The translations under genes and the position numbers were made by a program. A model generated the notes under the pieces. It saw only the letters and a list, made by a program, of their open reading frames with translations, did not search any database and was not told where the DNA came from. Positions 8,243 through 61,571 of a stretch of DNA of 64,000 nt are shown here, piece after piece. Position 1 is the stretch's first letter, and each line of letters starts with the position of its first letter. The DNA comes from a virus. The DNA lies in the IMG/VR virus record IMGVR_UViG_3300027973_000056, positions 2,621 to 66,620 of that record, one strand, 5' to 3'.

Positions 8243-8289
8243 TAAAAAACCCACCAATAGGTGGGTTTTATTTTTCCAATAGAATGTAA

Positions 8290-8472
8290 TTATTTTTTTT
8301 CTTCTACTGATGCAGGTGCTTCAGCCTTTACAGAATCTACAGCTACTGCCGCTGAATCTACTTTTACTGAATCTACCGCTACTACAGTTGAGTCAGAGTT
8401 AACTTCAGTTGATTTTCCGTTACCACAAGAGGCCAATGCTACGATTGCAAAAATTGCTAATACTTTTTTCAT
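8290..8472 (-). CDS. small lipoprotein
   Basis: Signal peptide with lipobox LASC; VDS repeats typical of Bacteroidota. Confidence 0.7.
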   Translation of the reverse strand: MKKVLAIFAIVALASCGNGKSTEVNSDSTVVAVDSVKVDSAAVAVDSVKAEAPASVEEKK

Positions 8473-8562
8473 GTTTTTTTTTCTTTTTTTGTTTATTAAT
8501 TAATAGACTATAAATATAAGAAGGTTAATGTATTATGTCAACTTTTCAAATATTTTTTTCTG

Positions 8563-8647
8563 CGGAAAGTGAGAGACTCGAACTCTCGCATCATTTGATT
8601 GATGTACGGTTTAGCAAACCGCTGCATTACCACTCTGCCAACTTTCC
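8563..8647 (-). tRNA. tRNA-Ser(GCT)
   Basis: Cloverleaf, anticodon loop TTGCTAA, long variable arm. Confidence 0.9.
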
Positions 8648-8653
8648 AATATT

Positions 8654-8989
8654 TTACAATAATTGTAAAAGATAATAAGACAATTTATATCCCGCAAATG
8701 CCCCTAAGGCTGATGGTATTGGAAACACAATCATTCGTCCCAAATCTGTTACATATTTGGGACGGTTAACTATCTTACCCATAAAAAAGTAATATGTTAG
8801 ATAACCTAATAATACCGCAATATCCGCTCTTGTTGCAATAAACACAACAATAGTCGCACCAATAAACCCAAAAGTAAAATTATCCCTAACTCCTTCCCAA
8901 ATTTCTGAAGTAGTGGCATCTTTATACTCTTTTACAATTTTCTTAAACTTGGCTCTATTGCCAGTTTTCTTTTTAATTTCAGTTTCCAT
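8654..8989 (-). CDS. hypothetical membrane protein
   Basis: ATG at 8989 (the longer ORF call overlaps tRNA-Ile); hydrophobic segments. Confidence 0.7.
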   Translation of the reverse strand: METEIKKKTGNRAKFKKIVKEYKDATTSEIWEGVRDNFTFGFIGATIVVFIATRADIAVLLGYLTYYFFMGKIVNRPKYVTDLGRMIVFPIPSALGAFAGYKLSYYLLQLL

Positions 8990-8991
8990 TG

Positions 8992-9065
8992 TTGGAATAG
9001 ATGGACTCGAACCATCGACATTCACCGTATCAGGATGACGCTCTAACCAACTGAGCTATATTCCA
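8992..9065 (-). tRNA. tRNA-Ile(GAT)
   Basis: Cloverleaf, loop CTGATAC; own TATCTTTG promoter near 9078-9085. Confidence 0.9.
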
Positions 9066-9158
9066 TTGTTGTTGGTACAAAGATACTAATTTTATTTTAT
9101 AAAAAAAATCCCCCTGACTTTTAATCAGAGGGATTCAATATTAAATTTAAAAAATATA

Positions 9159-9608
9159 CTACTTTAAAAATCTTAATTTGTATATTGTTGAATAAATTAA
9201 TTCTTGAACCGTATCTATTTGGTTTTGAATAAACGATTCTTTAACTCCTTTTCTTACTTTTTCAATCATGTAGTCTAATGATTTAAAATAATTAATTACT
9301 TGGTCAACACTTTTATAATCCTCAGTTTTTGCTGAGTCATAATTTTTAACAAGGTCGTACTTACCTTGGTAACTTTCGATAATACCGTCCACTAATTTGT
9401 CTATACCCTCATAATATCCTTGTAATGCTTTATGTTCTGAATATGATTTGGTTTGTAAATGAAAAATATGAACTTGAGTTTGAGAATGTAATAGTGTTGA
9501 TACCATATTCTTAAATCCTGAGTTACTTTTAGTTTCAGACTTATTTTCCTGCTCATTCAAATGCATCACTTTGAATAGTTGTTCTTTTGTTAATGTTAAT
9601 TTATCCAT
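9159..9608 (-). CDS. ferritin/Dps-like protein (DUF5856-like)
   Basis: HIFHLQTKSYSEHKAL..YY...D..IESYQG four-helix-bundle signature; N-terminal extension ending LNEQ. Confidence 0.7.
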   Translation of the reverse strand: MDKLTLTKEQLFKVMHLNEQENKSETKSNSGFKNMVSTLLHSQTQVHIFHLQTKSYSEHKALQGYYEGIDKLVDGIIESYQGKYDLVKNYDSAKTEDYKSVDQVINYFKSLDYMIEKVRKGVKESFIQNQIDTVQELIYSTIYKLRFLK

Positions 9609-9643
9609 ACAGATAAATAGTCAACATATTCAAAAAATATTTG

Positions 9644-9715
9644 GGTCAACGGACGGTATCGAACCGTCTTCCCGAGCTCCACAAACTCGTGCTTCACCTT
9701 AAAGCTTCAAAGACC
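9644..9715 (-). tRNA. tRNA-His(GTG)
   Basis: Loop TTGTGGA, encoded G-1 and C73; mismatched acceptor stem. Confidence 0.8.
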
Positions 9716-9720
9716 ATATG

Positions 9721-9794
9721 TTGCGAGAGGCAGATTTGAACTGCCCACCTCAGGGTTATGAATCCTGCGCTCTCACCAAATGAGCTACCTCGCA
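9721..9794 (-). tRNA. tRNA-Met(CAT), initiator-like
   Basis: TGCGAGG/TCTCGCA acceptor, loop TTCATAA, T-loop TTCAAAT. Confidence 0.85.
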
Positions 9795-9800
9795 GTTTAG

Positions 9801-9872
9801 AGGTTCTATTAGGATTCGAACCTAAACTCCAAAATCCGTAGTTTTGTGTGCTATCCGTTACACCATAAAACC
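9801..9872 (-). tRNA. tRNA-Arg(ACG)
   Basis: Cloverleaf, loop CTACGGA. Confidence 0.9.
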
Positions 9873-9950
9873 TTAGTCACGGTCATTGTCCCATTTTACA
9901 ACAAGCATCAAAATAACCCATAATAATAATAACCACATATTTTTTTCCAT
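9873..9950 (-). CDS. 25-aa hydrophobic micropeptide between tRNAs
   Basis: MEKNMWLLLLWVILMLVVKWDNDRD* fills the Gln-Arg spacer exactly. Confidence 0.35.
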   Translation of the reverse strand: MEKNMWLLLLWVILMLVVKWDNDRD

Positions 9951-9954
9951 TTTG

Positions 9955-10025
9955 TTATCCGACCTGGATTCGAACCAGAAATGACAGTACCAAAAACTGT
10001 AGTGTTACCGTTACACCATCGGACA
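9955..10025 (-). tRNA. tRNA-Gln(TTG)
   Basis: Cloverleaf, loop TTTTGGT. Confidence 0.9.
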
Positions 10026-10030
10026 ATATG

Positions 10031-10104
10031 TGGACCAGATAGGAATCGAACCTATTACCTTCACATTATGAGTGTGCCGCTCTAACCGAATGAGCTACAA
10101 GTCC
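10031..10104 (-). tRNA. tRNA(CAT), probably Ile2 (lysidine) or elongator Met
   Basis: GGACTTG acceptor, loop CTCATAA. Confidence 0.85.
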
Positions 10105-10197
10105 ATGAAGCTAAACATTGCTTTCAGGGTTGAAATGGCTCACAGATAAATCCGAATCACCACCTACTGATTTTACAGTATCTTAGTTTAACTTTTG

Positions 10198-10279
10198 TGG
10201 GAGTAGCTGGACTCGAACCAACGAACTCGAAAGAGGGAAGATTTACAGTCTTCTGCCATTGCCACTAGGCGATACTCCC
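10198..10279 (-). tRNA. tRNA-Tyr(GTA)
   Basis: Loop CTGTAAA, long variable arm. Confidence 0.9.
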
Positions 10280-10282
10280 AAA

Positions 10283-10413
10283 AATCAGGAAAGAGGAAGA
10301 TGGTTCAGTGGACATCCTCTTTTACGATTGGCATTACTAATGGTAGTTTAAACTCCGACGATGTCTTATTCCAACCACTACCAGGTATTTACATCATCAT
10401 TCCCCAATCAACC
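10283..10413 (-). ncRNA. candidate structured RNA in tRNA spacer
   Basis: Nested stems GATTGG/CCAATC and TGGTAGT/ACTACCA, then AAAGAGG/CCTCTTT. Confidence 0.45.
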
Positions 10414-10418
10414 TTTAG

Positions 10419-10491
10419 CACGCACGAAAGGGGTCGAACCTCTGACACATAGTTTTGGAGACTACTGCTCTACCATCTGAGCTACGCACGT
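10419..10491 (-). tRNA. tRNA-Trp(CCA)
   Basis: Cloverleaf, loop CTCCAAA. Confidence 0.9.
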
Positions 10492-10497
10492 GTTTAC

Positions 10498-10743
10498 TTA
10501 ATTAATAAATTCTTCTGTGTTTATGTTATGTTCGTCTAATATTTCGTATATCTTTCCAAACACTAACTCTAAAGTTTCGTACTTATCAACATCTTTACCT
10601 TCTAAAGACCACTCTAAAGACTTTTTAGTATTATGGGTAATTTCCCATAATGCCATAGCCATATCAAAAGACTTAACCGCTCTTTTATGAGCAATTACTT
10701 CATCTTGGTCATTTAAATCAAATTCTAATATTCCTTTTGCCAT
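10498..10743 (-). CDS. hypothetical protein
   Basis: 81-aa ORF between tRNAs. Confidence 0.7.
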   Translation of the reverse strand: MAKGILEFDLNDQDEVIAHKRAVKSFDMAMALWEITHNTKKSLEWSLEGKDVDKYETLELVFGKIYEILDEHNINTEEFIN

Positions 10744-10757
10744 AATATATATTTTTG

Positions 10758-10829
10758 AGGTCGATACAGGATTCGAACCTGTGTAAATAGTTTTGCAGAC
10801 TACCGCCTAATCCACTCGGCCAATCGACC
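10758..10829 (-). tRNA. tRNA-Cys(GCA)
   Basis: Cloverleaf, loop CTGCAAA, U73. Confidence 0.9.
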
Positions 10830-11015
10830 ATTTAACGTTTCTTTAATTTTATATTTTTTACATCTTTTTTTAGGTATCTCAACATAATATGAACCAAATA
10901 CAGAAATAAAAAGTCCAACATAGTTTTCTCCTTGTTCACTAACTTCTTGTAAAACGGTTCCTTCATATAAATGAGGAAAAATATCCGCGCTATCTTTTTT
11001 TACAACTACTTTCAT
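10800..11015 (-). CDS. hypothetical protein (3' end runs into tRNA-Cys)
   Basis: 71-aa ORF; last 10 codons lie within the tRNA. Confidence 0.55.
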   Translation of the reverse strand: MKVVVKKDSADIFPHLYEGTVLQEVSEQGENYVGLFISVFGSYYVEIPKKRCKKYKIKETLNGRLAEWIRR

Positions 11016-11027
11016 TTTAATTTATTT

Positions 11028-11246
11028 TTAATGTGTTCCGTTTGTTAATGAAATCCCATGCCTTACTCCTGTAATGAAATCTTCAATTTCTTCTTCGGTC
11101 ATATTGTTATATCTCTTACCGACAGTATGTCCAATCTCATTACCACAATCACTTAAATCTCCTTCGTATATTGTTACATCTGATTTTCCTTTCAAAGATA
11201 CAGAAATCCAAGATAAATCACTACTGTTAAATGTTCTTTTTTCCAT
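11028..11246 (-). CDS. hypothetical protein
   Basis: 72-aa ORF. Confidence 0.65.
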   Translation of the reverse strand: MEKRTFNSSDLSWISVSLKGKSDVTIYEGDLSDCGNEIGHTVGKRYNNMTEEEIEDFITGVRHGISLTNGTH

Positions 11247-11251
11247 ATTTT

Positions 11252-11875
11252 TTAATTTAATGAATTTGGGTAATACAATAATGTCGGGTTCTTTTTTTGG
11301 ATATCAACCTCGGGATATCTTTCCTTAAATTTCATCACATTAAAAGGTTGAGTTATAATATGGAACCCACTTCTTGTTTTAATAAAAGTCATTCCTTGTT
11401 CTTTTCCCGCCTCTTTCTGTAACTCGTTTATATATTCTCTCATTTTAATTTGACTTGGAGAATGGTTAAATCCATCAATGGATACATTATCAATATCAAT
11501 AATCCATCTTTTCTCTTGAGTCTTTATCTGTCCCACAACCGAGTCAAATAACCCCTTTTGGTTCTGAACTCCATTCTTAATTCTCTCAGCCAAACTTGCC
11601 AACATATCCAAAGACACATCTCTGTGATTTTGTTTCTGAACATGAATGTAAGCTCTTGCCTTGAACATCTCACATAATTGCATCACCTCATCATATCTCC
11701 TTTCCAAATGGTCAACTGATTCAATGCAATATGTTTTAATAGTTCTAACCGACTGATGGTTATCTCTTTCTCCTTCAGGTTGGTCTTTCTTACGTTTGAA
11801 AACATACAGCATATAGAAGTCACCCTTCTCCTCAAAGTTCAATAATGGTTTTATTATGTCTATATTGTTTATCAT
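11252..11875 (-). CDS. AEP (primase-polymerase)-fold-like protein
   Basis: hhDhD (WIIDID) and TRSGFH motifs; ATG at 11875 preferred. Confidence 0.5.
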   Translation of the reverse strand: MINNIDIIKPLLNFEEKGDFYMLYVFKRKKDQPEGERDNHQSVRTIKTYCIESVDHLERRYDEVMQLCEMFKARAYIHVQKQNHRDVSLDMLASLAERIKNGVQNQKGLFDSVVGQIKTQEKRWIIDIDNVSIDGFNHSPSQIKMREYINELQKEAGKEQGMTFIKTRSGFHIITQPFNVMKFKERYPEVDIQKKNPTLLYYPNSLN

Positions 11876-11889
11876 ATCATTTTTTTTTG

Positions 11890-11992
11890 TTGTTAAGGTG
11901 GGATTCGAACCCACAACGTAGTCTCGTAAAGAGAATCATCACCGTTTCGACTTACCGAGCCCTGTGCTCGTTTACATATCTACTACTTAACT
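11890..11992 (-). ncRNA. tRNA-like RNA with rearranged core
   Basis: GTTAAG/CTTAAC acceptor-like stem and perfect T-arm GTGGG-TTCGAAT-CCCAC; no canonical D or anticodon arm. Confidence 0.55.
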
Positions 11993-12330
11993 TCCTACCC
12001 CACTTCACCAGCTTAACGGACTGGCTGCCATATGGGAGTGGGGGTTTCCCGTTAATTCGGGACTCCGCGATGTTGCGGGAATCGAACCCACTCGATGAAC
12101 TACTTGTGATATGCACCAACCATTTGCTCCAATCCTAGTATTAAGGAGTGTTACCTACAAATCACCATCATTCAACCCTTTAACACCAAATTTGACTACT
12201 GACTGACTCCTTTCGAACTTTGAGGGTTTGTATCATTCAATATCAGTAGTCCAAGGCTGTAGGAGCTCATCTTTACACTTAGGCTCTTTGTCTTCTCATG
12301 TTGCAACATTTACGACCGTAGCGTCACCTT
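11993..12330 (-). ncRNA. candidate structured ncRNA(s)
   Basis: GC-rich, no credible ORF; T-arm motif 12075-12091; stems CCCCACT/AGTGGGG, GACTACTGA/TCAGTAGTC, CCTACA/TGTAGG. Confidence 0.5.
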
Positions 12331-12335
12331 GTTTG

Positions 12336-12408
12336 TGGTACGAGGTGGGTTCGAACCACCGACAACTTGTTCTTCAGACAAGCACTCTACCAACTGAGTT
12401 ATCGCACC
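12336..12408 (-). tRNA. tRNA-Phe(GAA)
   Basis: Cloverleaf, loop CTGAAGA. Confidence 0.9.
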
Positions 12409-12411
12409 AAG

Positions 12412-12484
12412 TTTAAAGTTAAAGTCGCCCACACTTGTTCGGGGCGGGACCTTTCGGTCACCTTCGACATCCCCTCAACTTTAA
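12412..12484 (-). ncRNA. candidate small structured RNA
   Basis: TTAAAGTTGA/TTAACTTTAA closing stem with GACC-GAAA-GGTC and CGCCC/GGGCG hairpins. Confidence 0.45.
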
Positions 12485-12696
12485 TTCACTTCAATATCTT
12501 CCAAAGGTACATCTTCTCCCTGAGTATGTTTATAAACTGTATTAAAAAACTCTCCTAACAATCTATAGTCCTCAGGAATCATATGACAAAAATCAAATGC
12601 AGGAATTGCACCATGAATTTGACCTTGTACTACCTTATCAAACTTATCATCTGGTTTGTACTCAAACACAGTATGTCCTCTAAAAATATATTTCAT
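12481..12696 (-). CDS. hypothetical protein
   Basis: 71-aa ORF. Confidence 0.6.
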   Translation of the reverse strand: MKYIFRGHTVFEYKPDDKFDKVVQGQIHGAIPAFDFCHMIPEDYRLLGEFFNTVYKHTQGEDVPLEDIEVN

Positions 12697-12697
12697 A

Positions 12698-12798
12698 ACT
12701 TCCGATTTTGTCTTGTTTTTACTTCCGAATTTGGACGGGTTTTACTTCCGACTTTGTCACTGCTCACATTTGAGGAAGTTTACTGCTCAAATTTGAGA
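12698..12798. repeat. degenerate tandem repeats, 23-bp period
   Basis: ACTTCCGAnTTTG at 12698, 12721, 12744; ACTGCTCAnATTTGAG at 12759, 12782. Confidence 0.75.
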
Positions 12799-12804
12799 TT
12801 TATG

Positions 12805-12877
12805 TAGTCCCTGTAGGAATCGAACCTACGACAACTTGCATGTAAGGCAAGTGCTCTTCCAACTGAGCTAAGAGACT
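12805..12877 (-). tRNA. tRNA-Val(TAC)
   Basis: Cloverleaf, loop CTTACAT. Confidence 0.9.
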
Positions 12878-12882
12878 AAATG

Positions 12883-12956
12883 TATCGCGTACGGGGCTCG
12901 AACCCGTAATCTTCATCGTGAAAGGATGACGACTTAACCAATTTGTCCAACGCGAC
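12883..12956 (-). tRNA. tRNA-Glu(TTC)
   Basis: Cloverleaf, loop CTTTCAC. Confidence 0.9.
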
Positions 12957-12966
12957 ATTTGTTTCA

Positions 12967-12998
12967 CAAAGATACAACCAATATTTCAAAGAGCCAAA
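12967..12998 (-). promoter_or_regulatory. Bacteroidota-type promoter directly upstream of tRNA-Glu
   Basis: TTTG (12998-12995)-N20-TATCTTTG (12974-12967); the spacer contains boxA-like GCTCTTTGAA. Confidence 0.6.
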
Positions 12999-13001
12999 AA
13001 C

Positions 13002-13036
13002 AAAAAACCCTGAACTTCATTTCTGTAGTTCAGGGT
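13002..13036 (-). terminator. attenuator terminator A
   Basis: ACCCTGAACT-N10-AGTTCAGGGT followed by T-tract; 5' arm can alternatively pair with 13097-13088. Confidence 0.8.
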
Positions 13037-13058
13037 ATATAAAAAATTTGGTTTATTT

Positions 13059-13169
13059 TTAGTTTAAAAAATTATTCAAAATTATATCCGAACTACATGA
13101 CTGCATACGCTCATACCAACAAGTTTCTTGTTGTTGACTAAAGACTGTATGTTTTATTGTAGTTCTCAT
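13059..13169 (-). CDS. putative attenuator leader peptide A (36 aa)
   Basis: MRTTIKHTVFSQQQETCWYERMQSCSSDIILNNFLN*; codons match the downstream tRNAs; contains the antiterminator segment. Confidence 0.75.
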   Translation of the reverse strand: MRTTIKHTVFSQQQETCWYERMQSCSSDIILNNFLN

Positions 13170-13187
13170 TGTTTCTAATATATAGTT

Positions 13188-13218
13188 CAAAGATATGAAA
13201 AAATCTTTGAGTGTCAAA
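13188..13218 (-). promoter_or_regulatory. Bacteroidota-type promoter for leader A
   Basis: TTTG (13218-13215)-N19-TATCTTTG (13195-13188), 18 nt before the leader ATG. Confidence 0.7.
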
Positions 13219-13243
13219 TATTTTTCCAAGTATTTATAAAAAG

Positions 13244-13663
13244 ATGAAGACATTAAGAGAAATTATTAAAGAAAATTTATTAGTTGAGAAAAGAATAACT
13301 CAAGTTAACTCATCTTTAGAAGTTTTATTTGTATTTGATGTGAATAGAACCAGTCATGCGTTCGATAGAGATACTAGAGATGATATTGAAGGATATAACA
13401 TAAGAGCGATTGAGAATGATGAAATCAGAGAAATTATCAGTAAGGTAAAAAAAGAAATCTCCGAAAAAATAGTAACAAGAGAAATTGTACCTGAAGAAGA
13501 TTTTGTCGTAAAATCTTTAAAGTGGGAATTGGCAATGGCGATAACTCCTGTTCATATGGGAGGAACCTATTGGCAACTAATCATCAAAACAGTATTTAGA
13601 GAATCCAATCATAACCCTTTTAGAGTTGGTAAAAATCAATTGGTTATTTATTCTGACATCTAA
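13244..13663 (+). CDS. hypothetical protein (late-type, LREIIKENLLVE N-terminus)
   Basis: ATG 13244 after TATTTAT 13231-13237. Confidence 0.7.
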   Translation: MKTLREIIKENLLVEKRITQVNSSLEVLFVFDVNRTSHAFDRDTRDDIEGYNIRAIENDEIREIISKVKKEISEKIVTREIVPEEDFVVKSLKWELAMAITPVHMGGTYWQLIIKTVFRESNHNPFRVGKNQLVIYSDI

Positions 13664-13664
13664 T

Positions 13665-13754
13665 AAAAAAGGGTAACACTAGTATCTGAATCGTTCCCGT
13701 GTTACCCAGTTTGTAATTGAGCTTGTGTATCTAAATCGTGCTCCTCAATCACAA
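13665..13754 (-). ncRNA. candidate sRNA with two hairpins carrying the same loop motif
   Basis: TATCTTTG promoter 13764-13757; ACGATTYAGATAC in both loops; ends GGGTAACAC/GTGTTACCC plus T6. Confidence 0.6.
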
Positions 13755-13816
13755 TACAAAGATACAAAAATATTTTGGTTTACAAAATCTATTGTATTTT
13801 TTTTTTATAAATATTG

Positions 13817-13897
13817 TACCCCAAGTCGGACTCGAACCGACACGACTTACGTCACAAGTTCCTAAAACTTGAGTGTCTACCATTCCACCATCGGGGT
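13817..13897 (-). tRNA. tRNA-Leu(TAG)
   Basis: Loop TTTAGGA, variable arm. Confidence 0.9.
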
Positions 13898-13902
13898 ATA
13901 CA

Positions 13903-13994
13903 TTATCATCGCTCCAGCCACATCGAGGAACACGCCGCCCCCGCGTTGTTTAAGTGTATGAATTGCGCCGTATCTCACTGAGTTACGATGATAA
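13903..13994 (-). ncRNA. candidate structured RNA between tRNA-Arg and tRNA-Leu
   Basis: Closing stem TTATCATCG/CGATGATAA, inner CTTCAGT/GCTGGAG, GC-rich core. Confidence 0.45.
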
Positions 13995-13997
13995 TTG

Positions 13998-14071
13998 TGA
14001 TTCGGAAAGGATTCGAACCTTTGACCCCAAACTTAGAAGGTTTGTGCTCTATCCAGCTGAGCTACCGAACC
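13998..14071 (-). tRNA. tRNA-Arg(TCT)
   Basis: Cloverleaf, loop CTTCTAA. Confidence 0.9.
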
Positions 14072-14279
14072 AAATTTCCCCACCTGAAATCCCAGTGAGT
14101 AGATATTCGCAGTTTTTCGTATTGAAAAACCCAACGCGTCTTACCGCTTAAAAAGTCAAACATACTCGGTGGCGTTGTTACGACCATTCTCCGAGACCCC
14201 CTCTTAAGGCCGTGGTAGGAAACAACCATAACATCTTTAAAGAACGTTACCAAACTTGATGAGTACTTCTAACTCATTG

Positions 14280-14361
14280 TATCAGAGGTGGGACTCGAAC
14301 CCACACGAGCAAAGCTCAACAGATTTTAAGTCTGTCTTGTATACCATTCCAACACTCTGAC
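14280..14361 (-). tRNA. tRNA-Leu(TAA)
   Basis: Loop CTTAAAA, variable arm; TATCTTTG promoter at 14378-14371. Confidence 0.9.
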
Positions 14362-14401
14362 ATTGTTTTACAAAGATAGTGAATATCTTTAATAAAGTCA
14401 T

Positions 14402-14434
14402 AAAAAAACCCCGAACTTTTTTAGTCGGGGTTTT
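14402..14434 (-). terminator. intrinsic terminator
   Basis: AAAACCCCGA/TCGGGGTTTT stem with T-tract. Confidence 0.7.
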
Positions 14435-14451
14435 AATTATAATAATTATTA

Positions 14452-15171
14452 TTAATCATTAAAACTTTCCTCGTAATAAGTATCGCTTGCGTTATCTTCT
14501 ATATTTTCTGTATGAACCAATTCGATTGTCATATCATGAAAATTGAATATAAATTGTCCATCAGAACCTTCATTAATTTCCCAACCACTATAGTTATCAC
14601 TAAGCTCTCTGTAACACCAATCTTCAATTGCAGCTGGAACTCCATCACCTGTTTCATTAAAACTACTTTCAAGATATCCCGAATCACCAGAACCATTATA
14701 TGTTACTATTAAAATCCCATCGTCAGGAATTGTAAGGTCTTCTAATACTCCACTTTCTTCCCATTCTTCAAATAGCTCCTTTCCTTGTTCATCCTCCCAA
14801 GTAACTGAACTACCTTCTCCTCTAGTATAAAAAGACCACCAACGAGTAAAACTAATTTTTTTAGAATCTACGTCAATGTCGTATTCAAGTCTTTGATAAT
14901 TCGTATCATCATTATCAGGTTCTCTAATTAAATTATTATCATCGCAATATTTCATAATTTTTTGAAGTATTGGAATCAATCCTGATGGAATATCTGCATT
15001 GTAGTTATTAGTGAAATGGGTTACATAATCCCAATCAACATTGTCATAATCAAATTCCTCTTGATTATCCATATCAATTTCAATGTTGCCGTCTTGCATT
15101 CCCATTGAACCTAAGTAATTGGATATTCTTCTTAAATATTGTTTTTCTTCTGGTGTTAAAATTCCTTTCAT
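14452..15171 (-). CDS. DUF6878-like protein
   Basis: YNGSGDSG...GWEINEGSDG motif. Confidence 0.6.
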   Translation of the reverse strand: MKGILTPEEKQYLRRISNYLGSMGMQDGNIEIDMDNQEEFDYDNVDWDYVTHFTNNYNADIPSGLIPILQKIMKYCDDNNLIREPDNDDTNYQRLEYDIDVDSKKISFTRWWSFYTRGEGSSVTWEDEQGKELFEEWEESGVLEDLTIPDDGILIVTYNGSGDSGYLESSFNETGDGVPAAIEDWCYRELSDNYSGWEINEGSDGQFIFNFHDMTIELVHTENIEDNASDTYYEESFND

Positions 15172-15182
15172 ACTTATAAATA

Positions 15183-15536
15183 TCAGTCGTTGAACTCTAG
15201 TTTAATTGTTTTTAACATCCATTGAGGACGTTGATTTGTTGATACGTTATTTATCCATTCTTTGGCAGATGGAATGTAGTTATTACAATCTTCTTTAACA
15301 TGTTGTTCTCCAACATATCTGGTGTAGACTGTAGTCCCGTCGCTATTCTTAAATTCGGCCCCAAATCTTTTTTCCATTTCAAAAATACCCTCACTATGAT
15401 GTCTAAACATTCTATGAAGTGAATCTCCAAACCATCCTTTAGTCTCATCTAACCATTCATGTAGATGAATATAGTCTTCAGGTTTTCCACCAAATTTTTT
15501 GGCGGATGATTTTGCATGTAAGTTAGGGTGTGCCAT
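15183..15536 (-). CDS. DUF6915-like protein
   Basis: MAHP..HAKSSAKKFGG..EDY..HEWLD..HR..RHH..G..EQHV.ED signature. Confidence 0.7.
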   Translation of the reverse strand: MAHPNLHAKSSAKKFGGKPEDYIHLHEWLDETKGWFGDSLHRMFRHHSEGIFEMEKRFGAEFKNSDGTTVYTRYVGEQHVKEDCNNYIPSAKEWINNVSTNQRPQWMLKTIKLEFND

Positions 15537-16101
15537 TTTTCCAAGAGTCTTTATTGTAGTTAAAATATACGAAATCTTCTTCTAAATAAGAATAAACATA
15601 ATCAGCCAAATCTTGGTCATAATATTCTTTATAATCATATCCTGATGAATAACCGTTGTTTAAAATGTTATCATACACAATATCAAAAAGTTCATGTGAA
15701 TCATCCATAAAAAATGGAAGTTTTAATATGTCTGAGTATAAATTCTCAACTCTAATTAATAAATCAGGAGTTTTGGTAATCCTTTTTTTTAAAAAAAATT
15801 CATAATCCAAAGTTTTGCCAGGAAATTTTATTTCTTCATGCAATTTTTGTCTAATCCAACTATTAAAGTCATTAGGAATTAAATTAGAGTGTATACAAAA
15901 AAGATGATATATTGAAATCATTCTGATATATGGATTTCTTGTATTTAAAACAAAAAAATATTCTTCTTTACCTTTTGGAATTTGCAAACCATGTAGTCCA
16001 ATAACGTCAAATTCAAAGTATGTTTGAATAGGCATGCATGACCTTGCTGCCGTTCTAATAGGTGTTGCCCACAATACTTTATATTTGTCAGAATAATTCA
16101 T
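15523..16101 (-). CDS. sulfotransferase-family (Sulfotransfer_2-like) protein
   Basis: P.RTA.RS and RNPY.RMIS PAPS-binding-like motifs; EDF..FNY tail. Confidence 0.6.
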   Translation of the reverse strand: MNYSDKYKVLWATPIRTAARSCMPIQTYFEFDVIGLHGLQIPKGKEEYFFVLNTRNPYIRMISIYHLFCIHSNLIPNDFNSWIRQKLHEEIKFPGKTLDYEFFLKKRITKTPDLLIRVENLYSDILKLPFFMDDSHELFDIVYDNILNNGYSSGYDYKEYYDQDLADYVYSYLEEDFVYFNYNKDSWKNGTP

Positions 16102-16334
16102 TATAAAATCTTTTCTTGTCTTCTTCTTGCCATTTCAGCGTCTTTGTACCATCTAATCCAAGTTAAAGACACATCAATTGGTGCTAACACCCAAGCCATA
16201 ACCATAACCATAATAGTATCTAATTCAGGAGACCCACCTGTTGGGTCATCACTATACCTTTTACTAAGGTTTTTAAATAACTGATAGAAACAATATATTA
16301 CACATACAAGGTAATATCCAATAAACATACTCAT
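16101..16334 (-). CDS. small membrane protein
   Basis: ATG 16334; two hydrophobic segments. Confidence 0.6.
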   Translation of the reverse strand: MSMFIGYYLVCVIYCFYQLFKNLSKRYSDDPTGGSPELDTIMVMVMAWVLAPIDVSLTWIRWYKDAEMARRRQEKIL

Positions 16335-16349
16335 AAATAAAAATTTTTG

Positions 16350-16422
16350 AGCCTCCTGTCGGACTCGAACCAACGACCACTTGTTTACAAAACAAGAGCT
16401 CTACCAACTGAGCTAAGGAGGC
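16350..16422 (-). tRNA. tRNA-Thr(TGT)
   Basis: Cloverleaf, loop TTTGTAA. Confidence 0.9.
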
Positions 16423-16425
16423 TTA

Positions 16426-16500
16426 TGGAGCAGATGAGAGGAATCGAACCTCCGTCTCCTACTTGGAAGGAAGGAGTAATGACCATTATACGACATCTGC
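16426..16500 (-). tRNA. tRNA-Gly(TCC)
   Basis: Loop CTTCCAA, encoded CCA. Confidence 0.9.
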
Positions 16501-16556
16501 GTGGAGTGCAGTGGGAGGTACCTTCCCTGTGGTTACTACACATTTTATCCACTTTG

Positions 16557-16629
16557 CGGTCCCGACGGGATTCGAACCCGTATCTCGCACCGTGACAGGG
16601 TGGAATTGTAACCATTCAACCACGGAACC
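16557..16629 (-). tRNA. tRNA-Asp(GTC)
   Basis: Cloverleaf, loop CTGTCAC. Confidence 0.9.
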
Positions 16630-16656
16630 GTGTATGGGGAGTTTCACCCCAAACTT

Positions 16657-17145
16657 TTACTCAACAAAGATATGATTATATTCCAATATTCTTCGTTTTA
16701 ATTTATTAACATATTGTGGGTCCTCGGCATAAACTTTACCGAGTAATGCAAAATATTGTTTTTTTGTCATATCATTACGTGATTTTAACATGTGGTCTTG
16801 CCACAATGAGTAATCATACACGCTATACCCCCAATCTTCGTATTTTGAGTAACCACTTTGGGTTTCCCCAATCTTTGCGGATTCTCTTTTACTTGGAACT
16901 TTCATTCCAAAAAGATTATTAGCTGATTTGAACAACTTTGATGTAAACTCTCCTGATTCTAATATAGCTTGTGCAAACACAATATCAGGAAATTTTATAC
17001 CATACTTAATTATCTGCTCATACAAACTTTCTTTTGAGATACTCTCTTGAGTATTTGATTCAATCTGTACTTGCTTCTCTTGTGCTTTGGTTGCCATTGT
17101 TCCTAACAATAACATCCCAGTCAATAAGAATGTTTTTAACTTCAT
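16657..17145 (-). CDS. GH73/FlgJ-like glucosaminidase with signal peptide
   Basis: AQAILESG, NNLFGMK and YAEDPQY motifs. Confidence 0.85.
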   Translation of the reverse strand: MKLKTFLLTGMLLLGTMATKAQEKQVQIESNTQESISKESLYEQIIKYGIKFPDIVFAQAILESGEFTSKLFKSANNLFGMKVPSKRESAKIGETQSGYSKYEDWGYSVYDYSLWQDHMLKSRNDMTKKQYFALLGKVYAEDPQYVNKLKRRILEYNHIFVE

Positions 17146-17225
17146 TTCTTTCTTTTTGTCTGTTTATGCTTCAGGATTGCTCCATCCACGATACTACAAC
17201 ATTGGAATTTTTCCACCTACCGCAG

Positions 17226-17297
17226 AGGCCCCTGTAGGATTTGAACCTACGACCAGTTGATTAACAGTCAACTGCTCTACCACTGAGCTAAAGGGCC
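17226..17297 (-). tRNA. tRNA-Asn(GTT)
   Basis: Cloverleaf, loop CTGTTAA. Confidence 0.9.
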
Positions 17298-17337
17298 TTA
17301 TAATAATAAATAAAATTTCCAATAAAGGAAACTTTTG

Positions 17338-17411
17338 TCGGGATGGCTGGATTCGAACCAACGGCCTCCACGTCCCAAACGTGGCGCGATACCTGACTAC
17401 GCTACATCCCG
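17338..17411 (-). tRNA. tRNA-Pro(TGG)
   Basis: C1-G72, loop TTTGGGA. Confidence 0.9.
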
Positions 17412-17416
17412 TAAAT

Positions 17417-17447
17417 AAAAAAACCCTGAAGGATAAGTTCAGGGTTT
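17417..17447 (-). terminator. attenuator terminator B
   Basis: AAACCCTGAA-CTTATCC-TTCAGGGTTT then T-tract ending 5 nt before tRNA-Pro; can alternatively pair with 17494-17486. Confidence 0.8.
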
Positions 17448-17468
17448 AAATAATTGGCTATAATATTG

Positions 17469-17567
17469 TTACCAACCACTCGCTTCTGAACTTACGCATA
17501 TAGTGCCCCCATCTCCATTAGGAGTTGTCGGCGTGTCTAAATTTGTATTTGTGTTCATAGTTTTCAT
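17469..17567 (-). CDS. putative attenuator leader peptide B (32 aa)
   Basis: MKTMNTNTNLDTPTTPNGDGGTICVSSEASGW*; 18 of the first 22 codons are T/N/D/P/G, the downstream tRNA set; TATTTAT at 17588-17582. Confidence 0.8.
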   Translation of the reverse strand: MKTMNTNTNLDTPTTPNGDGGTICVSSEASGW

Positions 17568-17622
17568 AGTACAATATTACAATAAATATATTCAAAATCA
17601 AATAAATCCCTATTTTAGTTTT

Positions 17623-18342
17623 TTAAGGTAATGTGTTACTACCTTTCAGGTAAAAGTCACCTACAACTTTTGGTCTTAATTCTGTACCTGAGTACGTACT
17701 ATAAACTCTGTATTCCCCAACAGGAATACGAGTTCCCGTGTAATTTAAAACATAATCAGATAATGTAGAATTAGTATTGAAAGGAGTTCTATATATCATA
17801 TTGGTATGCGCACTAGACATTCTTGATTGTCTCCAATTTGGGTTAGGTGTTGCATTCACAGGAATTAATACCATAATCCACACAAATTGATTATTAACTA
17901 AAGGACCATTAATTTTAACCGTTCCAAAATTATACACACCTGCCGAAGTTTGTGTAATATTTGATTGAATGACTGTAGGTAATGTTCCATTATACCAATA
18001 CGGCATATCAATATAATTTAACAAATCAGTATAATTTGTTGATTTGATTGGTGACCCAGTAAAAAAACCATAAAATGGAGTGTTTGTCGGGGTTTGTGTA
18101 CTACGAGGTCTTGTCTTTAAATAACTCACAATCATATTGAGTTTTGACTGAGGCTCAACAAAAATATAAACCTTTGGTCCAACTGATGAAACAGTCGGAG
18201 ATGTTGACATTGTTCTTAAGTCTTCTCCTTGAGTTGATTCAATTGAAGTTTGTTTAACTGGGTCATACACGTCGTCTTTTGTACAAGATACAAATAATAC
18301 CGATGTTGCGAAAATTGCAAGAAATAATTGTTTTAGTTTCAT
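17623..18342 (-). CDS. lipoprotein of unknown function
   Basis: Signal peptide with FVSC lipobox; TATCTTTG upstream. Confidence 0.75.
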   Translation of the reverse strand: MKLKQLFLAIFATSVLFVSCTKDDVYDPVKQTSIESTQGEDLRTMSTSPTVSSVGPKVYIFVEPQSKLNMIVSYLKTRPRSTQTPTNTPFYGFFTGSPIKSTNYTDLLNYIDMPYWYNGTLPTVIQSNITQTSAGVYNFGTVKINGPLVNNQFVWIMVLIPVNATPNPNWRQSRMSSAHTNMIYRTPFNTNSTLSDYVLNYTGTRIPVGEYRVYSTYSGTELRPKVVGDFYLKGSNTLP

Positions 18343-18411
18343 AGTTGTCTTTTTTTACAAAGATAATAAAATAATTTGATTTTGAAAATTATTTACAGAT
18401 ATTTATTCTTG

Positions 18412-18513
18412 ATGATAGACAATAATATTACGTGTCTTTTGGGAATTAACCAAAAATATGAGAACTCGGGAACGTTGAGATGTGGAAAACCTCGAACCAT
18501 AAACTATTGCTAA
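18412..18513 (+). CDS. 33-aa micropeptide or sRNA
   Basis: TATTTAT at 18400; MIDNNITCLLGINQKYENSGTLRCGKPRTINYC*; terminator 18531-18557. Confidence 0.35.
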   Translation: MIDNNITCLLGINQKYENSGTLRCGKPRTINYC

Positions 18514-18660
18514 ATCATTGGGATATTTTAAAGGGGTCGAAGTTCGTCCCCTTTTTTGTTTTTATCATCCAAATAAACTATGTTTGTAAAAATTGGATAA
18601 AATGTTTAGTAGACTAAATCCAAATATATATAAAAACATTACCGTCTAAACAATTACAGA

Positions 18661-36896: not shown

Positions 36897-37138
36897 AAAA
36901 TAAAATAGACAAAATCTACGAATCAAAAATCGTACATACTTCATTCTTAGATAAAGAATCCATTGTTGATGCAATGATGGATTCTTATATCTTAGGATTA
37001 AACGAATCAGAAGAAAAATACAATAAACTTAAATTAGCTTTTGAATCTTTATTAGATTATTGGGGTGATTATGGAAACTATAACTCGTCAAGAAATCATA
37101 TGGAAGAAGATTGGAAAAAAGAAGGAGGATTAATATGA
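36893..37138 (+). CDS. hypothetical protein
   Basis: 81-aa ORF in operon. Confidence 0.6.
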   Translation: MKNKIDKIYESKIVHTSFLDKESIVDAMMDSYILGLNESEEKYNKLKLAFESLLDYWGDYGNYNSSRNHMEEDWKKEGGLI

Positions 37139-61491: not shown

Positions 61492-61571
61492 TTTTTATAA
61501 AGATAAGAAAGATTTTAATGCCTTCCAAATCTTTTGATGAAAATTCCGAAAATAAATTTCGGGGACTTCCG

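What the first reader, a model, noticed from the sequence alone, without database searches (positions are those of the whole stretch)
9644..17588. Codon-matched leader-peptide attenuators appear to control phage tRNA arrays (candidate tRNA-depletion-sensing switch)
Seen: each of the two largest tRNA arrays is preceded by promoter, a 32-36-codon ORF and an intrinsic terminator. The two units look homologous: both terminators begin ACCCTGAACT, and both leaders carry the complementary antiterminator AGTTC(A/G)G in frame at codons 26-28 (Ser-Ser-Asp/Glu). The upstream codons differ and match each leader's own array (B: Thr/Asn/Asp/Pro/Gly; A: His/Val/Phe/Gln/Glu/Cys/Trp/Tyr/Arg-CGT/Met/Ile-ATA). 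Established: in trp/his/thr-type attenuation, ribosome stalling at hungry codons frees the antiterminator; host anticodon nucleases (PrrC, PARIS AriB, RloC etc.) destroy tRNAs during infection and phage tRNAs can rescue translation. Inference: these are multiplex sensors that induce replacement tRNAs when any matching host tRNA is cleaved or uncharged. I do not know of ribosome-mediated attenuation described for tRNA genes.
Basis: partly seen in the sequence, partly recalled or inferred. Interest (0 to 1): 0.97.

Follow-up and report, generated by a model that had tools for sequence, protein, structure and literature searches.

The report
Leader-peptide switches before phage tRNA genes
Two tiny translated genes, each written in the amino acids of the tRNA genes behind it and joined to a transcription stop that can refold, probably let this uncultured phage make more of a tRNA set when ribosomes read those codons slowly.

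Summary
On the minus strand there are two paralogous units, each made of a promoter, a short ORF and an intrinsic terminator. Unit B lies at 17414-17590 in front of tRNA-Pro. Unit A lies at 12995-13195 in front of tRNA-Glu.

Each leader contains every tRNA class of its own terminator-delimited array.

In relatives from IMG/VR I found 31 distinct leaders. I tested 14 representatives.
- 12 of the 14 list all classes of their own array.
- Swapping arrays among units never reached the observed match, in 0 of 20,000 permutations.

A short segment at the 3' end of the ORF can pair with the 5' arm of the terminator. In one lineage the terminator sequence is different, and this segment has changed to match it.

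Leader B varies only synonymously in codons 1-19 and freely after that.

The best reading is trp/ilv-style ribosome-mediated attenuation applied to tRNA genes. My confidence is about 0.6.

Three caveats apply.
- Array A, and the second half of array B, have their own TAnnTTTG promoters downstream of the terminator. Control there can only be partial.
- Base-pair covariation is thin.
- The link to anticodon nucleases is untested.

Four full-text searches found no published description. This scan has noted the same design before, on other DNA.

The parts
17572..17590 (-). Candidate promoter P1 of unit B. Two overlapping near-consensus -7 boxes, each one base off TAnnTTTG, conserved in all 9 distinct B-type sequences.
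   Evidence: The box position relative to the transcription start (-12 to -5) comes from passages of PMC9723704. With the proximal box the transcript would start at or next to the ATG.
17469..17567 (-). Leader ORF B, 32 codons plus stop. 19 of the 31 codons after the start are Thr, Asn, Gly, Asp or Pro.
   Evidence: Among 9 distinct relatives, the 8 variable codons within codons 1-19 are all synonymous, while codons 23-32 vary non-synonymously at 9 positions.
17486..17495 (-). Segment 2 of unit B, the antiterminator strand (ORF nt 73-82, codons 25-28). It pairs with the terminator 5' arm and the first loop bases.
   Evidence: The MFE of the whole transcript contains this 10-bp helix closing an inner hairpin. 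The core 6 pairs are invariant in 9 of 9 sequences, and two outer pairs break in 1 and 7 sequences.
17414..17447 (-). Intrinsic terminator B with its T run. tRNA-Pro begins 5 nt after the T run, so there is no room for a promoter.
   Evidence: There is no TAnnTTTG on this strand between the terminator and tRNA-Pro.
16349..17411 (-). Array B: tRNA-Pro, tRNA-Asn, a 162-aa glucosaminidase-family ORF (17145..16657), an internal TATCTTTG promoter (16672-16665), then tRNA-Asp, tRNA-Gly and tRNA-Thr. The transcription unit runs on through four ORFs to the next terminator, at 14440-14401.
13188..13195 (-). Promoter P1 of unit A, a perfect TAnnTTTG -7 box 18 nt before the ATG.
   Evidence: for the motif
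13059..13169 (-). Leader ORF A, 36 codons plus stop. It contains every tRNA class of array A.
   Evidence: The frame is kept across relatives by a 3-nt insertion. A 1-nt deletion after segment 2 lengthens the tail in the window and L004.
13158..13165 (-). Segment 1 of unit A (codons 2-4). It can pair with the 5' half of segment 2, which would make it an anti-antiterminator.
   Evidence: It pairs in the MFE. 7 of the 8 pairs hold in 12 of 12 variants, but they never vary on both sides, so this is neither supported nor refuted.
13088..13097 (-). Segment 2 of unit A (ORF nt 73-82, codons 25-28). It forms 10 bp with the terminator 5' arm and loop in the window, and a 7-bp core in all relatives.
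   Evidence: The same bases are read in another frame in the L038/L130 lineage.
12995..13036 (-). Intrinsic terminator A: 10-bp stem, 10-nt loop, T run.
   Evidence: One stem pair changes on both sides between relatives (C-G in 10 rows, U-A in 2).
12967..12993 (-). Conserved promoter block P2 between terminator A and tRNA-Glu. Its -7 box is at 12974-12967, so transcripts would start about 6 nt before the tRNA.
   Evidence: (box present in 12 of 12 A-type variants, with the two free positions varying)
9643..12956 (-). Array A: tRNA-Glu, Val and Phe, five small ORFs and structured RNA, then tRNA-Cys, Trp, Tyr, Met, Gln, Arg(acg), Met and His. A 149-aa ORF follows (9608..9159), and the unit ends at the terminator 9136-9106.

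Best explanation
Units A and B are ribosome-mediated (leader-peptide) transcription attenuators that sit in front of phage tRNA genes.

Proposed mechanism (inferred, not shown):
- RNA polymerase starts at P1 and a ribosome translates the short ORF.
- The first 20 or so codons are a roster of the amino acids or codon boxes served by the tRNA genes downstream.
- If all are decoded quickly, the ribosome reaches the end of the ORF and covers or passes segment 2. The terminator hairpin then forms and transcription stops.
- If the ribosome is slow at any roster codon, segment 2 stays free and pairs with the 5' arm of the terminator. The terminator cannot form, and polymerase runs into the tRNA array.
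- The result is negative feedback on decoding capacity: the phage tops up a tRNA set when that set runs short.

In this window the gate looks complete only for tRNA-Pro and tRNA-Asn. Array A and tRNA-Asp/Gly/Thr also have their own sigma-A-type promoters, so read-through would add to a basal level.

Shown here: the anatomy, conservation of the frame, co-variation of roster and array, and the alternative pairing.
Inferred: translation in vivo, coupling to polymerase, and the direction and size of the response.
For: (1) Roster.
- Leader B has 18 of 24 codons in the five classes of its array. The next best of 148 short ORFs has 12.
- Leader A holds all 11 classes of its array. No window of 13,706 does.

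(2) Co-variation.
- There are 31 distinct leaders in IMG/VR relatives, of which 21 have a terminator-delimited array.
- In 14 representatives, 248 of 403 leader codons are read by the unit's own array, against a mean of 184.7 (maximum 238) when arrays are permuted. That is 0 of 20,000 permutations.
- In the 10 A-like units alone the figures are 180 against 160.9, again 0 of 20,000.
- 12 of the 14 leaders contain every class of their own array.
- L139 has Phe codons and tRNA-Phe. Its close relative L135 has neither.
- L130 lacks Val, Phe, Trp, Lys, Met and CGN-Arg before segment 2, and its array lacks those tRNAs.
- The L134 leader is rich in Ala, Gly, Asp, Thr, AGA-Arg and AUA-Ile, and its array begins Glu, Ala, Met, Met, Gly, Asp, Asp, Arg(tct), Thr, Met.

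(3) Translation.
- In B, the 8 variable codons within codons 1-19 are all synonymous, including a two-base Leu-to-Leu change.
- 9 variable codons after codon 22 are non-synonymous.
- In A, a 3-nt indel keeps the frame.

(4) RNA-level constraint.
- Segment 2 is conserved at the base level even where it is read in another frame (L038/L130).

(5) Alternative pairing.
- In the nascent-transcript fold (3' arm not yet made), the terminator 5' arm pairs with the 3' end of the ORF in 9 of 14 units clearly and in 3 partly.
- Duplex energy beats all or nearly all shuffles in L134 (0/300), L135 (0/300), L139 (1/300), window A (3/300), L130 (6/300) and L144 (8/300).
- L134 has an unrelated terminator sequence, and its ORF ends in the matching complement.
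- Across types, the base pairs seen at two positions of the 2:3 helix are G-C, G-U, A-U and U-A, U-G, C-G. I saw no mismatch there. This is my own reading of the sequences printed, not a tool count.

(6) Position.
- Segment 2 ends 0-15 nt before the stop codon in 10 of the 12 representatives where the helix falls at the 3' end of the ORF.

(7) Context.
- No promoter fits between terminator B and tRNA-Pro. The gap is 12-16 nt in 8 of 9 B-type variants.
- Passages of PMC9723704 report clues to leader-peptide attenuation in a Flavobacterium.
- An RNA-library contig spans leader A, its terminator and the start of tRNA-Glu (X2 record 9, 217 nt, depth 2.6). This is weak, because it may be DNA carry-over.
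Against: (1) A conserved promoter block lies between terminator A and tRNA-Glu in all A-type units.
- The same layout of terminator, TATCTTTG box and tRNA follows ordinary protein genes at 9136/9085 and 14440/14378.
- Terminator A could therefore be a plain gene end.

(2) Base-pair covariation among close relatives is nearly absent.
- The core helices never vary.
- The outer pairs of the window's 9-10-bp helices are lost in relatives without compensation.

(3) The pairing is weak by the shuffle test in several units: window B 27/300, L132 49/300, L152 45/300, L140 86/300. In L130 and L144 the nascent fold does not use it.

(4) There are exceptions to the roster.
- Leader A has Thr four times, plus Lys and Ser, with no such tRNA in array A. 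The window lacks the tRNA-Lys that relatives carry.
- L078 and L132 keep Ala at codon 20 although their array has no tRNA-Ala.
- The L042/L006 array has no CAU tRNA, yet the leader has two Met codons.
- L130 has four Asn and two Pro codons, and I found no such tRNA in a 142-kb record.
- L135 matches its own array less well than the mean of the other arrays (12/25 against 13.2).

(5) In the window, leader A ends 27 nt after segment 2. A ribosome at the stop codon would not cover segment 2.

(6) The units are related by descent, so permutation counts overstate independence. I chose the 14 representatives myself.

(7) There is no experimental or end-mapping data.
Confidence: 0.6

Rival explanations
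1. The leader is translated and does sense decoding of the roster codons, but the output is not read-through into the tRNAs. Possible outputs are stability or processing of the transcript, a trans-acting role for the terminated leader RNA or the peptide, or control of promoter P2 by transcription across it.
For: - P2 lies downstream of terminator A in 12 of 12 variants, so the array does not need read-through.
- Terminated attenuator RNAs and leader peptides with trans functions are described for Sinorhizobium trpL. I saw only the search listing and abstracts of PMC6614838 and 10.1101/606483.
Against: - Unit B has no promoter between its terminator and tRNA-Pro.
- Segment 2 follows the terminator sequence when that changes (L134). 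That is what a terminator/antiterminator choice predicts.
- The C-terminal peptide is not conserved.
Confidence: 0.15
2. The units are ordinary stand-alone small genes with ordinary terminators. The tRNA arrays run from their own promoters or from leaky termination, and the codon match has no regulatory meaning.
For: - The same order of terminator, TATCTTTG box and tRNA follows normal protein genes at 9136-9078 and 14440-14371.
- Leader B is low in complexity. 0.23% of windows in real proteins of this genome are as rich in the same five residues.
Against: - All array classes are present in 12 of 14 leaders, and no permutation of 20,000 reaches the observed match.
- The C-terminal third is free to change, to shift frame and to lengthen, while a nucleotide segment inside it is conserved.
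- The segment complementary to the terminator is replaced together with the terminator in L134.
- Neither peptide matches any PHROG family.
Confidence: 0.12
3. The units are untranslated structured RNAs, either a small RNA or a protein- or tRNA-binding riboswitch such as a T-box-like element, and the ORFs are incidental.
For: - Both transcripts fold better than shuffles (z -4.0 and -3.7).
- Segments 1 and 2 are conserved as nucleotides.
Against: - Variation in codons 1-19 of B is purely synonymous.
- The indel in A is frame-preserving.
- The roster co-varies with the array.
- No Rfam family, T-box included, matches either locus at E up to 1.
Confidence: 0.05

Closest known systems
Multivalent leader-peptide attenuators of enterobacterial amino-acid operons (ilvGMEDA, ilvBN, thr; also trp, his, leu, pheA). 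This comparison rests on my own knowledge of the textbook systems.
   Same: - A short translated ORF rich in the codons whose supply is being measured.
- An intrinsic terminator just downstream.
- A segment at the end of the ORF that can pair with the terminator 5' arm.
- In unit A, a further upstream segment that can sequester that strand.
   Different: - The regulated genes are tRNA genes, not biosynthetic enzymes.
- The roster covers 5 to 14 different amino-acid or codon-box classes, usually once to four times each. The known leaders carry runs of one to three amino acids.
- The element is viral.
- The hosts are Bacteroidota-type, without Shine-Dalgarno sequences. One leader may be leaderless.
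- In unit A a second promoter follows the terminator.
Attenuator of the pheST operon (pheM leader) and other leader-peptide controls of aminoacyl-tRNA synthetase genes. Recalled, not checked here.
   Same: Leader-peptide attenuation is applied to a component of the decoding machinery rather than to amino-acid synthesis, which gives feedback on charged-tRNA supply.
   Different: That system controls a synthetase, not the tRNA itself. It senses a single amino acid and is cellular.
T-box riboswitches
   Same: They couple tRNA status to read-through of an intrinsic terminator by way of an antiterminator.
   Different: - T-boxes bind uncharged tRNA directly, need no translation, and have a specifier loop and a T-box sequence.
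- No T-box or other Rfam family matched at E up to 1.
- Here an ORF under coding constraint does the sensing.
Phage tRNA clusters of T4, T5 and Caulobacter phage phiCbK
   Same: - Clustered tRNA genes are interspersed with small ORFs and stable RNAs.
- In the phiCbK record, predicted rho-independent terminators are annotated directly in front of three tRNA clusters, with short ORFs before them.
   Different: - I know of no regulatory role assigned to such upstream ORFs, and four full-text searches found none.
- I did not analyse the phiCbK ORFs beyond reading their translations.

Membership tests
Ribosome-mediated (leader-peptide) transcription attenuator | A short ORF upstream of the regulated genes that is translated | tested here: met
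   - The ORFs are conserved in 31 distinct forms.
- In B, the 8 variable codons within codons 1-19 are all synonymous.
- A 3-nt indel keeps the frame in A.
- Translation itself was not observed.
Ribosome-mediated (leader-peptide) transcription attenuator | The leader is enriched in codons whose decoding reports on the product of the regulated genes | tested here: met
   All array classes are present in 12 of 14 leaders, and no permutation of 20,000 reaches the observed match.
Ribosome-mediated (leader-peptide) transcription attenuator | An intrinsic terminator lies between the leader and the regulated genes, with no promoter in between | tested here: inconclusive
   - Met for unit B up to tRNA-Pro and tRNA-Asn.
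- Not met for unit A. A conserved TAnnTTTG block lies at 12993-12967, downstream of the terminator.
- Not met for tRNA-Asp, Gly and Thr, which have a box at 16672-16665.
Ribosome-mediated (leader-peptide) transcription attenuator | An antiterminator helix that is mutually exclusive with the terminator | tested here: met
   - The complementarity lies at the 3' end of the ORF in 12 of 14 units.
- It is used in the nascent fold in 9 of 14 units clearly and in 3 partly.
- It is replaced together with the terminator in L134.
- Strict two-sided covariation within close relatives is almost absent.
Ribosome-mediated (leader-peptide) transcription attenuator | The stop codon is placed so that a terminating ribosome masks the antiterminator strand | tested here: inconclusive
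   The distance from segment 2 to the stop codon is 0-15 nt in most units. It is 27 nt in the window's leader A, after a 1-nt deletion.
Ribosome-mediated (leader-peptide) transcription attenuator | Read-through rises when the cognate charged tRNA is limiting | not testable with these tools
   This needs reporter assays, Term-seq or in-vitro coupled transcription-translation.
T-box riboswitch | Match to the T-box covariance model (specifier loop, T-box motif) | tested here: not met
   cmscan of 8000-19000 at E up to 1 lists only tRNAs and sub-threshold chance hits. Nothing was found at either unit.
Known Rfam leader families (Phe_leader and the like) | Match at or above the gathering score | tested here: not met
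   The only Phe_leader hits are at 8221-8300, at 28 bits against a threshold of 55. They lie on a bidirectional terminator, not on the units.

The most novel reading that the evidence does not exclude
The rosters are multiplex damage sensors in an arms race. When a host anticodon nuclease or other tRNA-directed defence cuts any one of the 5 to 14 tRNA species listed in a leader, the ribosome stalls there and the phage switches on a replacement set. The phage's tRNA island would then be an inducible counter-defence operon rather than a codon-usage supplement. The design may have arisen more than once in unrelated phages. Notes of this scan, and my brief look at phiCbK, suggest Caulobacter phages as a second case.
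Probability: 0.15. Interest if true: 0.95.

Novelty: new variant of a known kind. Interest (0 to 1): 0.85.

Why it matters
Why phages carry tRNA genes, and how those genes are controlled, has been debated for decades. The abstracts of PMC10264068 and PMC11464382, seen in the search listing, set out the codon-supplement view and the defence-evasion view.

A leader-peptide attenuator whose codons list the tRNAs behind it would be a new use of a textbook mechanism in three respects.
- It regulates tRNA genes.
- It measures many codons at once.
- It would give the phage feedback control over decoding capacity.

It also makes the question testable. Each leader predicts which tRNA shortages should induce which array.

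In addition, the rosters offer a way to read, from sequence alone, which tRNA genes form one regulatory unit.

Tried and rejected
Searches that found nothing at the two units:
- Rfam at E up to 1.
- Pfam and PHROGs for the two peptides (one search covered the neighbouring genes).
- The phage collection by megablast and by sensitive blastn. One search matched only tRNA-Asn, to T4-like phages. One search found no match.

Cultured relative:
- The nearest cultured phage by thymidylate synthase is Flavobacterium phage immuto, at 60% identity.
- It has three tRNAs behind a 51-codon ORF with no terminator. There is no unit there.

An apparent Gly/Ala co-variation at codon 20 of leader B with tRNA-Ala:
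- It holds in the window and L005 against L001, L006 and L011.
- It is broken by L078 and L132. I dropped it as evidence.

Pair counting on close relatives:
- The helices hardly vary, so the counts say little either way.
- The extended 9-10-bp helices of the window are not kept in relatives.

RNA runs:
- Four metatranscriptome runs hold parts of the stretch, but only as contigs.
- Contigs cannot show transcript ends or strand.
- The bin over terminator B and tRNA-Pro (17336-17497) is almost empty. I draw nothing from that.

It gave mostly chance matches: 13 of 80 distinct matches had the terminator 3' arm. I replaced it with stricter patterns.

Of the 28 distinct units found with the promoter-block pattern, two (L138, L149) have no tRNA and no leader unit.

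Rows left out of the permutation test:
- 10 of the 31 leader types, because their array is cut by the contig end.
- 7 complete near-duplicates: L084, L042, L006, L019, L040, L078 and L118.

Supplementary files of papers were not consulted.

Full report
WHAT THE DNA IS

The window covers 64 kb of a 66.6-kb single-contig virus record.

It carries 23 tRNA genes. Of these, 21 lie on the minus strand between 8562 and 17411.

Several observations point to an uncultured large phage of a Bacteroidota host.
- Relatives in IMG/VR are fragments of 130-142 kb that CheckV rates 43-46% complete.
- The nearest cultured phage by thymidylate synthase is a Flavobacterium myovirus, at 60% identity.
- The octamer TATCTTTG occurs 20 times in the window against 4.9 expected, and none of 100 shuffles reaches 20.
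- That octamer is an instance of the Bacteroidota sigma-A -7 box TAnnTTTG. According to passages of PMC9723704, the box spans -12 to -5.
- In the window the octamer sits just upstream of genes and tRNAs.
- Contigs identical over up to 523 nt occur in an RNA library labelled lake water (X1 record 7).

THE OBSERVATION

Reading the minus strand, the order of unit B is as follows.
- Near-consensus promoter boxes at 17590-17572.
- A 32-codon ORF at 17567..17469.
- A terminator at 17447-17421 with its T run.
- tRNA-Pro from 17411, five bases after the T run.

The order of unit A is as follows.
- A perfect box at 13195-13188.
- A 36-codon ORF at 13169..13059.
- A terminator at 13036-12995.
- tRNA-Glu from 12956.

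The two terminator 5' arms share ten bases.

TRANSCRIPTION UNITS

A simple terminator finder locates exactly five terminators on this strand between 8 and 19 kb. They cut the tRNA island into four units.
- Unit B: Pro, Asn, Asp, Gly, Thr.
- A leaderless-type unit: Leu, Arg(tct), Leu.
- Unit A: Glu, Val, Phe, Cys, Trp, Tyr, Met, Gln, Arg(acg), Met, His.
- A last unit: Ile, Ser.

THE ROSTERS ARE NOT CHANCE

Leader B:
- 18 of codons 2-25 belong to the five classes of array B.
- Among 148 short ORFs of the genome the next best has 12.
- Among 13,706 windows of 24 codons in the long ORFs, 0.23% reach 18. None of those contains all five classes.

Leader A:
- It contains every class of array A.
- No window of the 13,706 contains 11 of these classes, and 0.02% contain 10.
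- The eleventh class, AUA, assumes that one of the two CAU tRNAs reads it. I did not test that.

THE UNITS IN RELATIVES

Protein-anchored searches and three DNA-pattern scans gave 55 distinct units with 31 distinct leader peptides. Of these, 21 have an array bounded by a predicted terminator. Every unit sits directly in front of a tRNA array.

The two types are homologous. L078 and L132 carry a B-type leader with an A-type C-terminus. L133, L135 and L139 carry a B-type start on an A-type body.

CO-VARIATION OF LEADER AND ARRAY

I took one representative of each of 14 leader families, chosen by locus id. The rows I dropped are listed under Tried and rejected.

- Whole leaders: 248 of 403 codons are read by the unit's own array. 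When arrays are permuted among units the mean is 184.7, the sd 11.1 and the maximum 238. No permutation of 20,000 reaches 248.
- First 22 codons after the start: 221 of 308 against a mean of 148.3, again 0 of 20,000.
- The 10 A-like units alone, without B, L134 and the two arrays that lack tRNA-Glu: 180 against 160.9, 0 of 20,000.
- Completeness: 12 of 14 leaders contain every class of their array. L041 misses Leu(tag) and L152 misses Asp.

Telling cases:
- L139 has two Phe codons and a tRNA-Phe. Its close relative L135 has neither.
- L130 has lost Val, Phe, Trp, Lys, Met and CGN-Arg from the sensing part, and its array lacks those six tRNAs. It has gained AGY-Ser and AUY-Ile codons, and its array includes Ser(gct) and Ile(gat).
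- L152 lacks Glu and Tyr codons, and its array lacks those tRNAs.
- L134 has a quite different leader, rich in Thr, Gly, Asp, Ala, AGA-Arg and AUA-Ile. Its array begins Glu, Ala, Met, Met, Gly, Asp, Asp, Arg(tct), Thr, Met. Its relative L147 has an Ile(tat) gene.

Exceptions, stated as fully:
- Codons 3-4 are Thr in all A-type leaders I looked at, although array A has no tRNA-Thr. These two codons form segment 1 (see below).
- The window's leader A has a Lys codon, but the tRNA-Lys that relatives carry is missing from the window.
- L078 and L132 have Ala at codon 20 of leader B without a tRNA-Ala.
- The L042/L006 array has no CAU tRNA, but the leader has two Met codons.
- L130 has four Asn and two Pro codons, and I found no such tRNA in 142 kb of its record.
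- L152 has Gln codons without a tRNA-Gln.
- L135 matches its own array slightly worse than the average foreign array.
- The units share ancestry, so the permutation figures overstate the number of independent events. I judge that there are six or seven independent lineages.

TRANSLATION AND RNA-LEVEL CONSTRAINT

I compared nine distinct B-type sequences.
- The eight variable codons within codons 1-19 are all synonymous. One is a two-base Leu-to-Leu change.
- Codon 20 is Gly or Ala.
- Nine variable codons between 23 and 32 change the amino acid.

In A-type leaders:
- A 3-nt insertion keeps the frame.
- A 1-nt deletion after segment 2 changes and lengthens the tail in the window and L004.

In the L038/L130 lineage about 15 bases around segment 2 are identical to those of other A-type leaders, but they are read in a different frame.

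So the front of the ORF is constrained as codons, and the back is constrained as RNA. That is the pattern expected of an attenuator leader and not of a small protein.

THE ALTERNATIVE STRUCTURES

Window unit B:
- The minimum-energy fold of the whole transcript already contains a 10-bp helix between segment 2 and the terminator 5' arm.
- That helix closes an inner hairpin (-40.3 kcal/mol, z -3.7).
- Forcing the terminator costs 1.3 kcal/mol.

Window unit A:
- The fold shows the terminator.
- It also shows a helix between codons 2-4 (segment 1) and the 5' half of segment 2.
- The 3' half of segment 2 can form 10 bp with the terminator arm.
- Together these give the classical 1:2, 2:3, 3:4 layout.

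Across the 14 representatives:
- The best leader-to-arm complementarity lies at the 3' end of the ORF in 12 units.
- In folds of the nascent transcript, the arm pairs there clearly in 9 units, partly or mixed in 3, and not in 2, L130 and L144.
- Against 300 shuffles the duplex energy is matched or beaten 0, 0, 1, 3, 6 and 8 times in six units, and 19 to 86 times in the other eight.

The strongest single item is L134.
- Its terminator has an unrelated sequence.
- The last codons of its ORF contain a 9-base complement to the new 5' arm. No shuffle of 300 does as well.

Reading the sequences printed, the pairs seen across types at two positions of the 2:3 helix are G-C, G-U, A-U and U-A, U-G, C-G. 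I saw no mismatch. This is my own reading, not a tool count.

Pair counts on close relatives add little.
- The core pairs never vary.
- One terminator pair changes on both sides.
- Two pairs of the inner hairpin of B change on both sides.
- The outer pairs of the window's long helices are lost in relatives.

WHAT SPEAKS AGAINST A SIMPLE GATE

- A 27-nt block ending in a TAnnTTTG box lies between terminator A and tRNA-Glu.
- The box is present in 12 of 12 A-type variants, with its two free positions varying.
- The block is conserved enough to serve as a search pattern that found the most divergent units.
- It would start transcripts about 6 nt before the tRNA.
- The same order of terminator, box and tRNA follows ordinary protein genes in front of tRNA-Ile and tRNA-Leu.
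- tRNA-Asp, Gly and Thr have a box at 16672-16665.

Read-through from leader A can therefore only add to what P2 gives. Only tRNA-Pro and tRNA-Asn, and the glucosaminidase-family gene after them, depend on passing a leader terminator.

In the window's leader A the stop codon lies 27 nt beyond segment 2, so a terminating ribosome would not mask it. In most relatives the distance is 0-15 nt.

EXPRESSION

- Four metatranscriptome runs hold parts of the stretch, as contigs only.
- One 217-nt contig (X2 record 9, one mismatch, depth 2.6) runs from the start of leader A across the terminator and P2 into tRNA-Glu. That is compatible with read-through, but it could be DNA carry-over.
- Nothing can be said about unit B from these data.

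COMPARISON WITH WHAT IS KNOWN

The architecture is that of leader-peptide attenuators, and closest to the multivalent ilv and thr leaders. It differs in four ways.
- The target is tRNA genes.
- The roster is broad, 5-14 classes.
- The element is viral.
- Unit A has a second promoter.

It is not a T-box and matches no Rfam family.

Four full-text searches listed no paper on attenuation of tRNA genes or on leader ORFs in front of phage tRNA arrays. I read only listings and abstracts, apart from the passages of PMC9723704.

Notes of this scan describe the same design on other genomes, including Caulobacter phages. Those are unchecked AI notes and I do not count them as support. Following that lead, I looked at phiCbK.
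- Its record annotates rho-independent terminators directly in front of three tRNA clusters.
- Short ORFs precede them.
- The ORF in front of the Phe-Val-Ile-Ile-Val-Gln-Gln cluster is rich in just those residues in its first 18 codons. The other two are less clear.
- I did not analyse this further.

VERDICT

- The attenuator reading is the best explanation, at about 0.6. It is a new variant of a known mechanism.
- It rests on comparative sequence evidence only.
- Its quantitative weight for array A is in doubt because of P2.
- The anticodon-nuclease trigger remains speculation, at about 0.15.

Noticed in passing
window 14072-14263 (-), between tRNA-Arg(tct) and tRNA-Leu(taa): The roughly 200-nt spacer inside the third tRNA unit is by far the most abundant part of the stretch in two RNA libraries (contig depth 72 in X2 and 533 in X3). 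It may be a stable RNA released by tRNA processing, like the T4 cluster RNAs. No Rfam family matches it.
   Followed up: partly
window 11880-12334 (-), between tRNA-Phe and the 220-aa ORF: Relatives carry tRNA-Lys(ttt) at this place. The window instead has about 450 nt of GC-richer sequence with two tRNA-like T-arm and acceptor ends that ARAGORN and Rfam do not call. Part of it is shared with L004 at 98.6% identity. It may be a tRNA-like or cargo RNA, or a disrupted tRNA.
   Followed up: partly
window 13669-13772 (-): Two overlapping TAnnTTTG boxes (13772-13757) are followed after about 45 nt by a hairpin with a T run. The hairpin also ends the plus-strand 150-aa gene. This could be a small RNA of about 90 nt, or a bidirectional terminator with a stray promoter.
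   Followed up: no
window 61571-61661 (-): ARAGORN calls a tRNA with anticodon UCA, which it labels SeC. TATCTTTG boxes lie at 61693-61686 and 61789-61782. It may be a UGA suppressor or recoding tRNA. I did not check whether any phage gene has in-frame TGA.
   Followed up: no
L001 6936-7008 and L078 3426-3500, compared with window 17337-17411: The tRNA-Pro(tgg) gene behind the nearly identical leader B differs strongly in sequence between relatives. tRNA genes seem to be exchanged as cassettes while the leader and terminator stay in place.
   Followed up: no
L005/L062 (B-type unit): 49 nt lie between terminator B and tRNA-Pro, instead of 12-16 nt. The insert begins with a copy of the first part of the P2-type block.
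   Followed up: no
L156 (Caulobacter phage phiCbK, JX100813.1 47300-52700): The record annotates rho-independent terminators directly in front of three tRNA clusters, each preceded by a short ORF. One of these ORFs is annotated as gp083, 45 aa. The ORF in front of the Phe/Val/Ile/Gln cluster is rich in those residues. This may be a cultured, tractable analogue.
   Followed up: partly
window 37111-38460 (+): The thymidylate synthase ORF is 449 aa and matches the PHROG profile in two stretches. Erwinia phage homologues are split by a homing-endonuclease gene. The extra length here may be an insertion.
   Followed up: no
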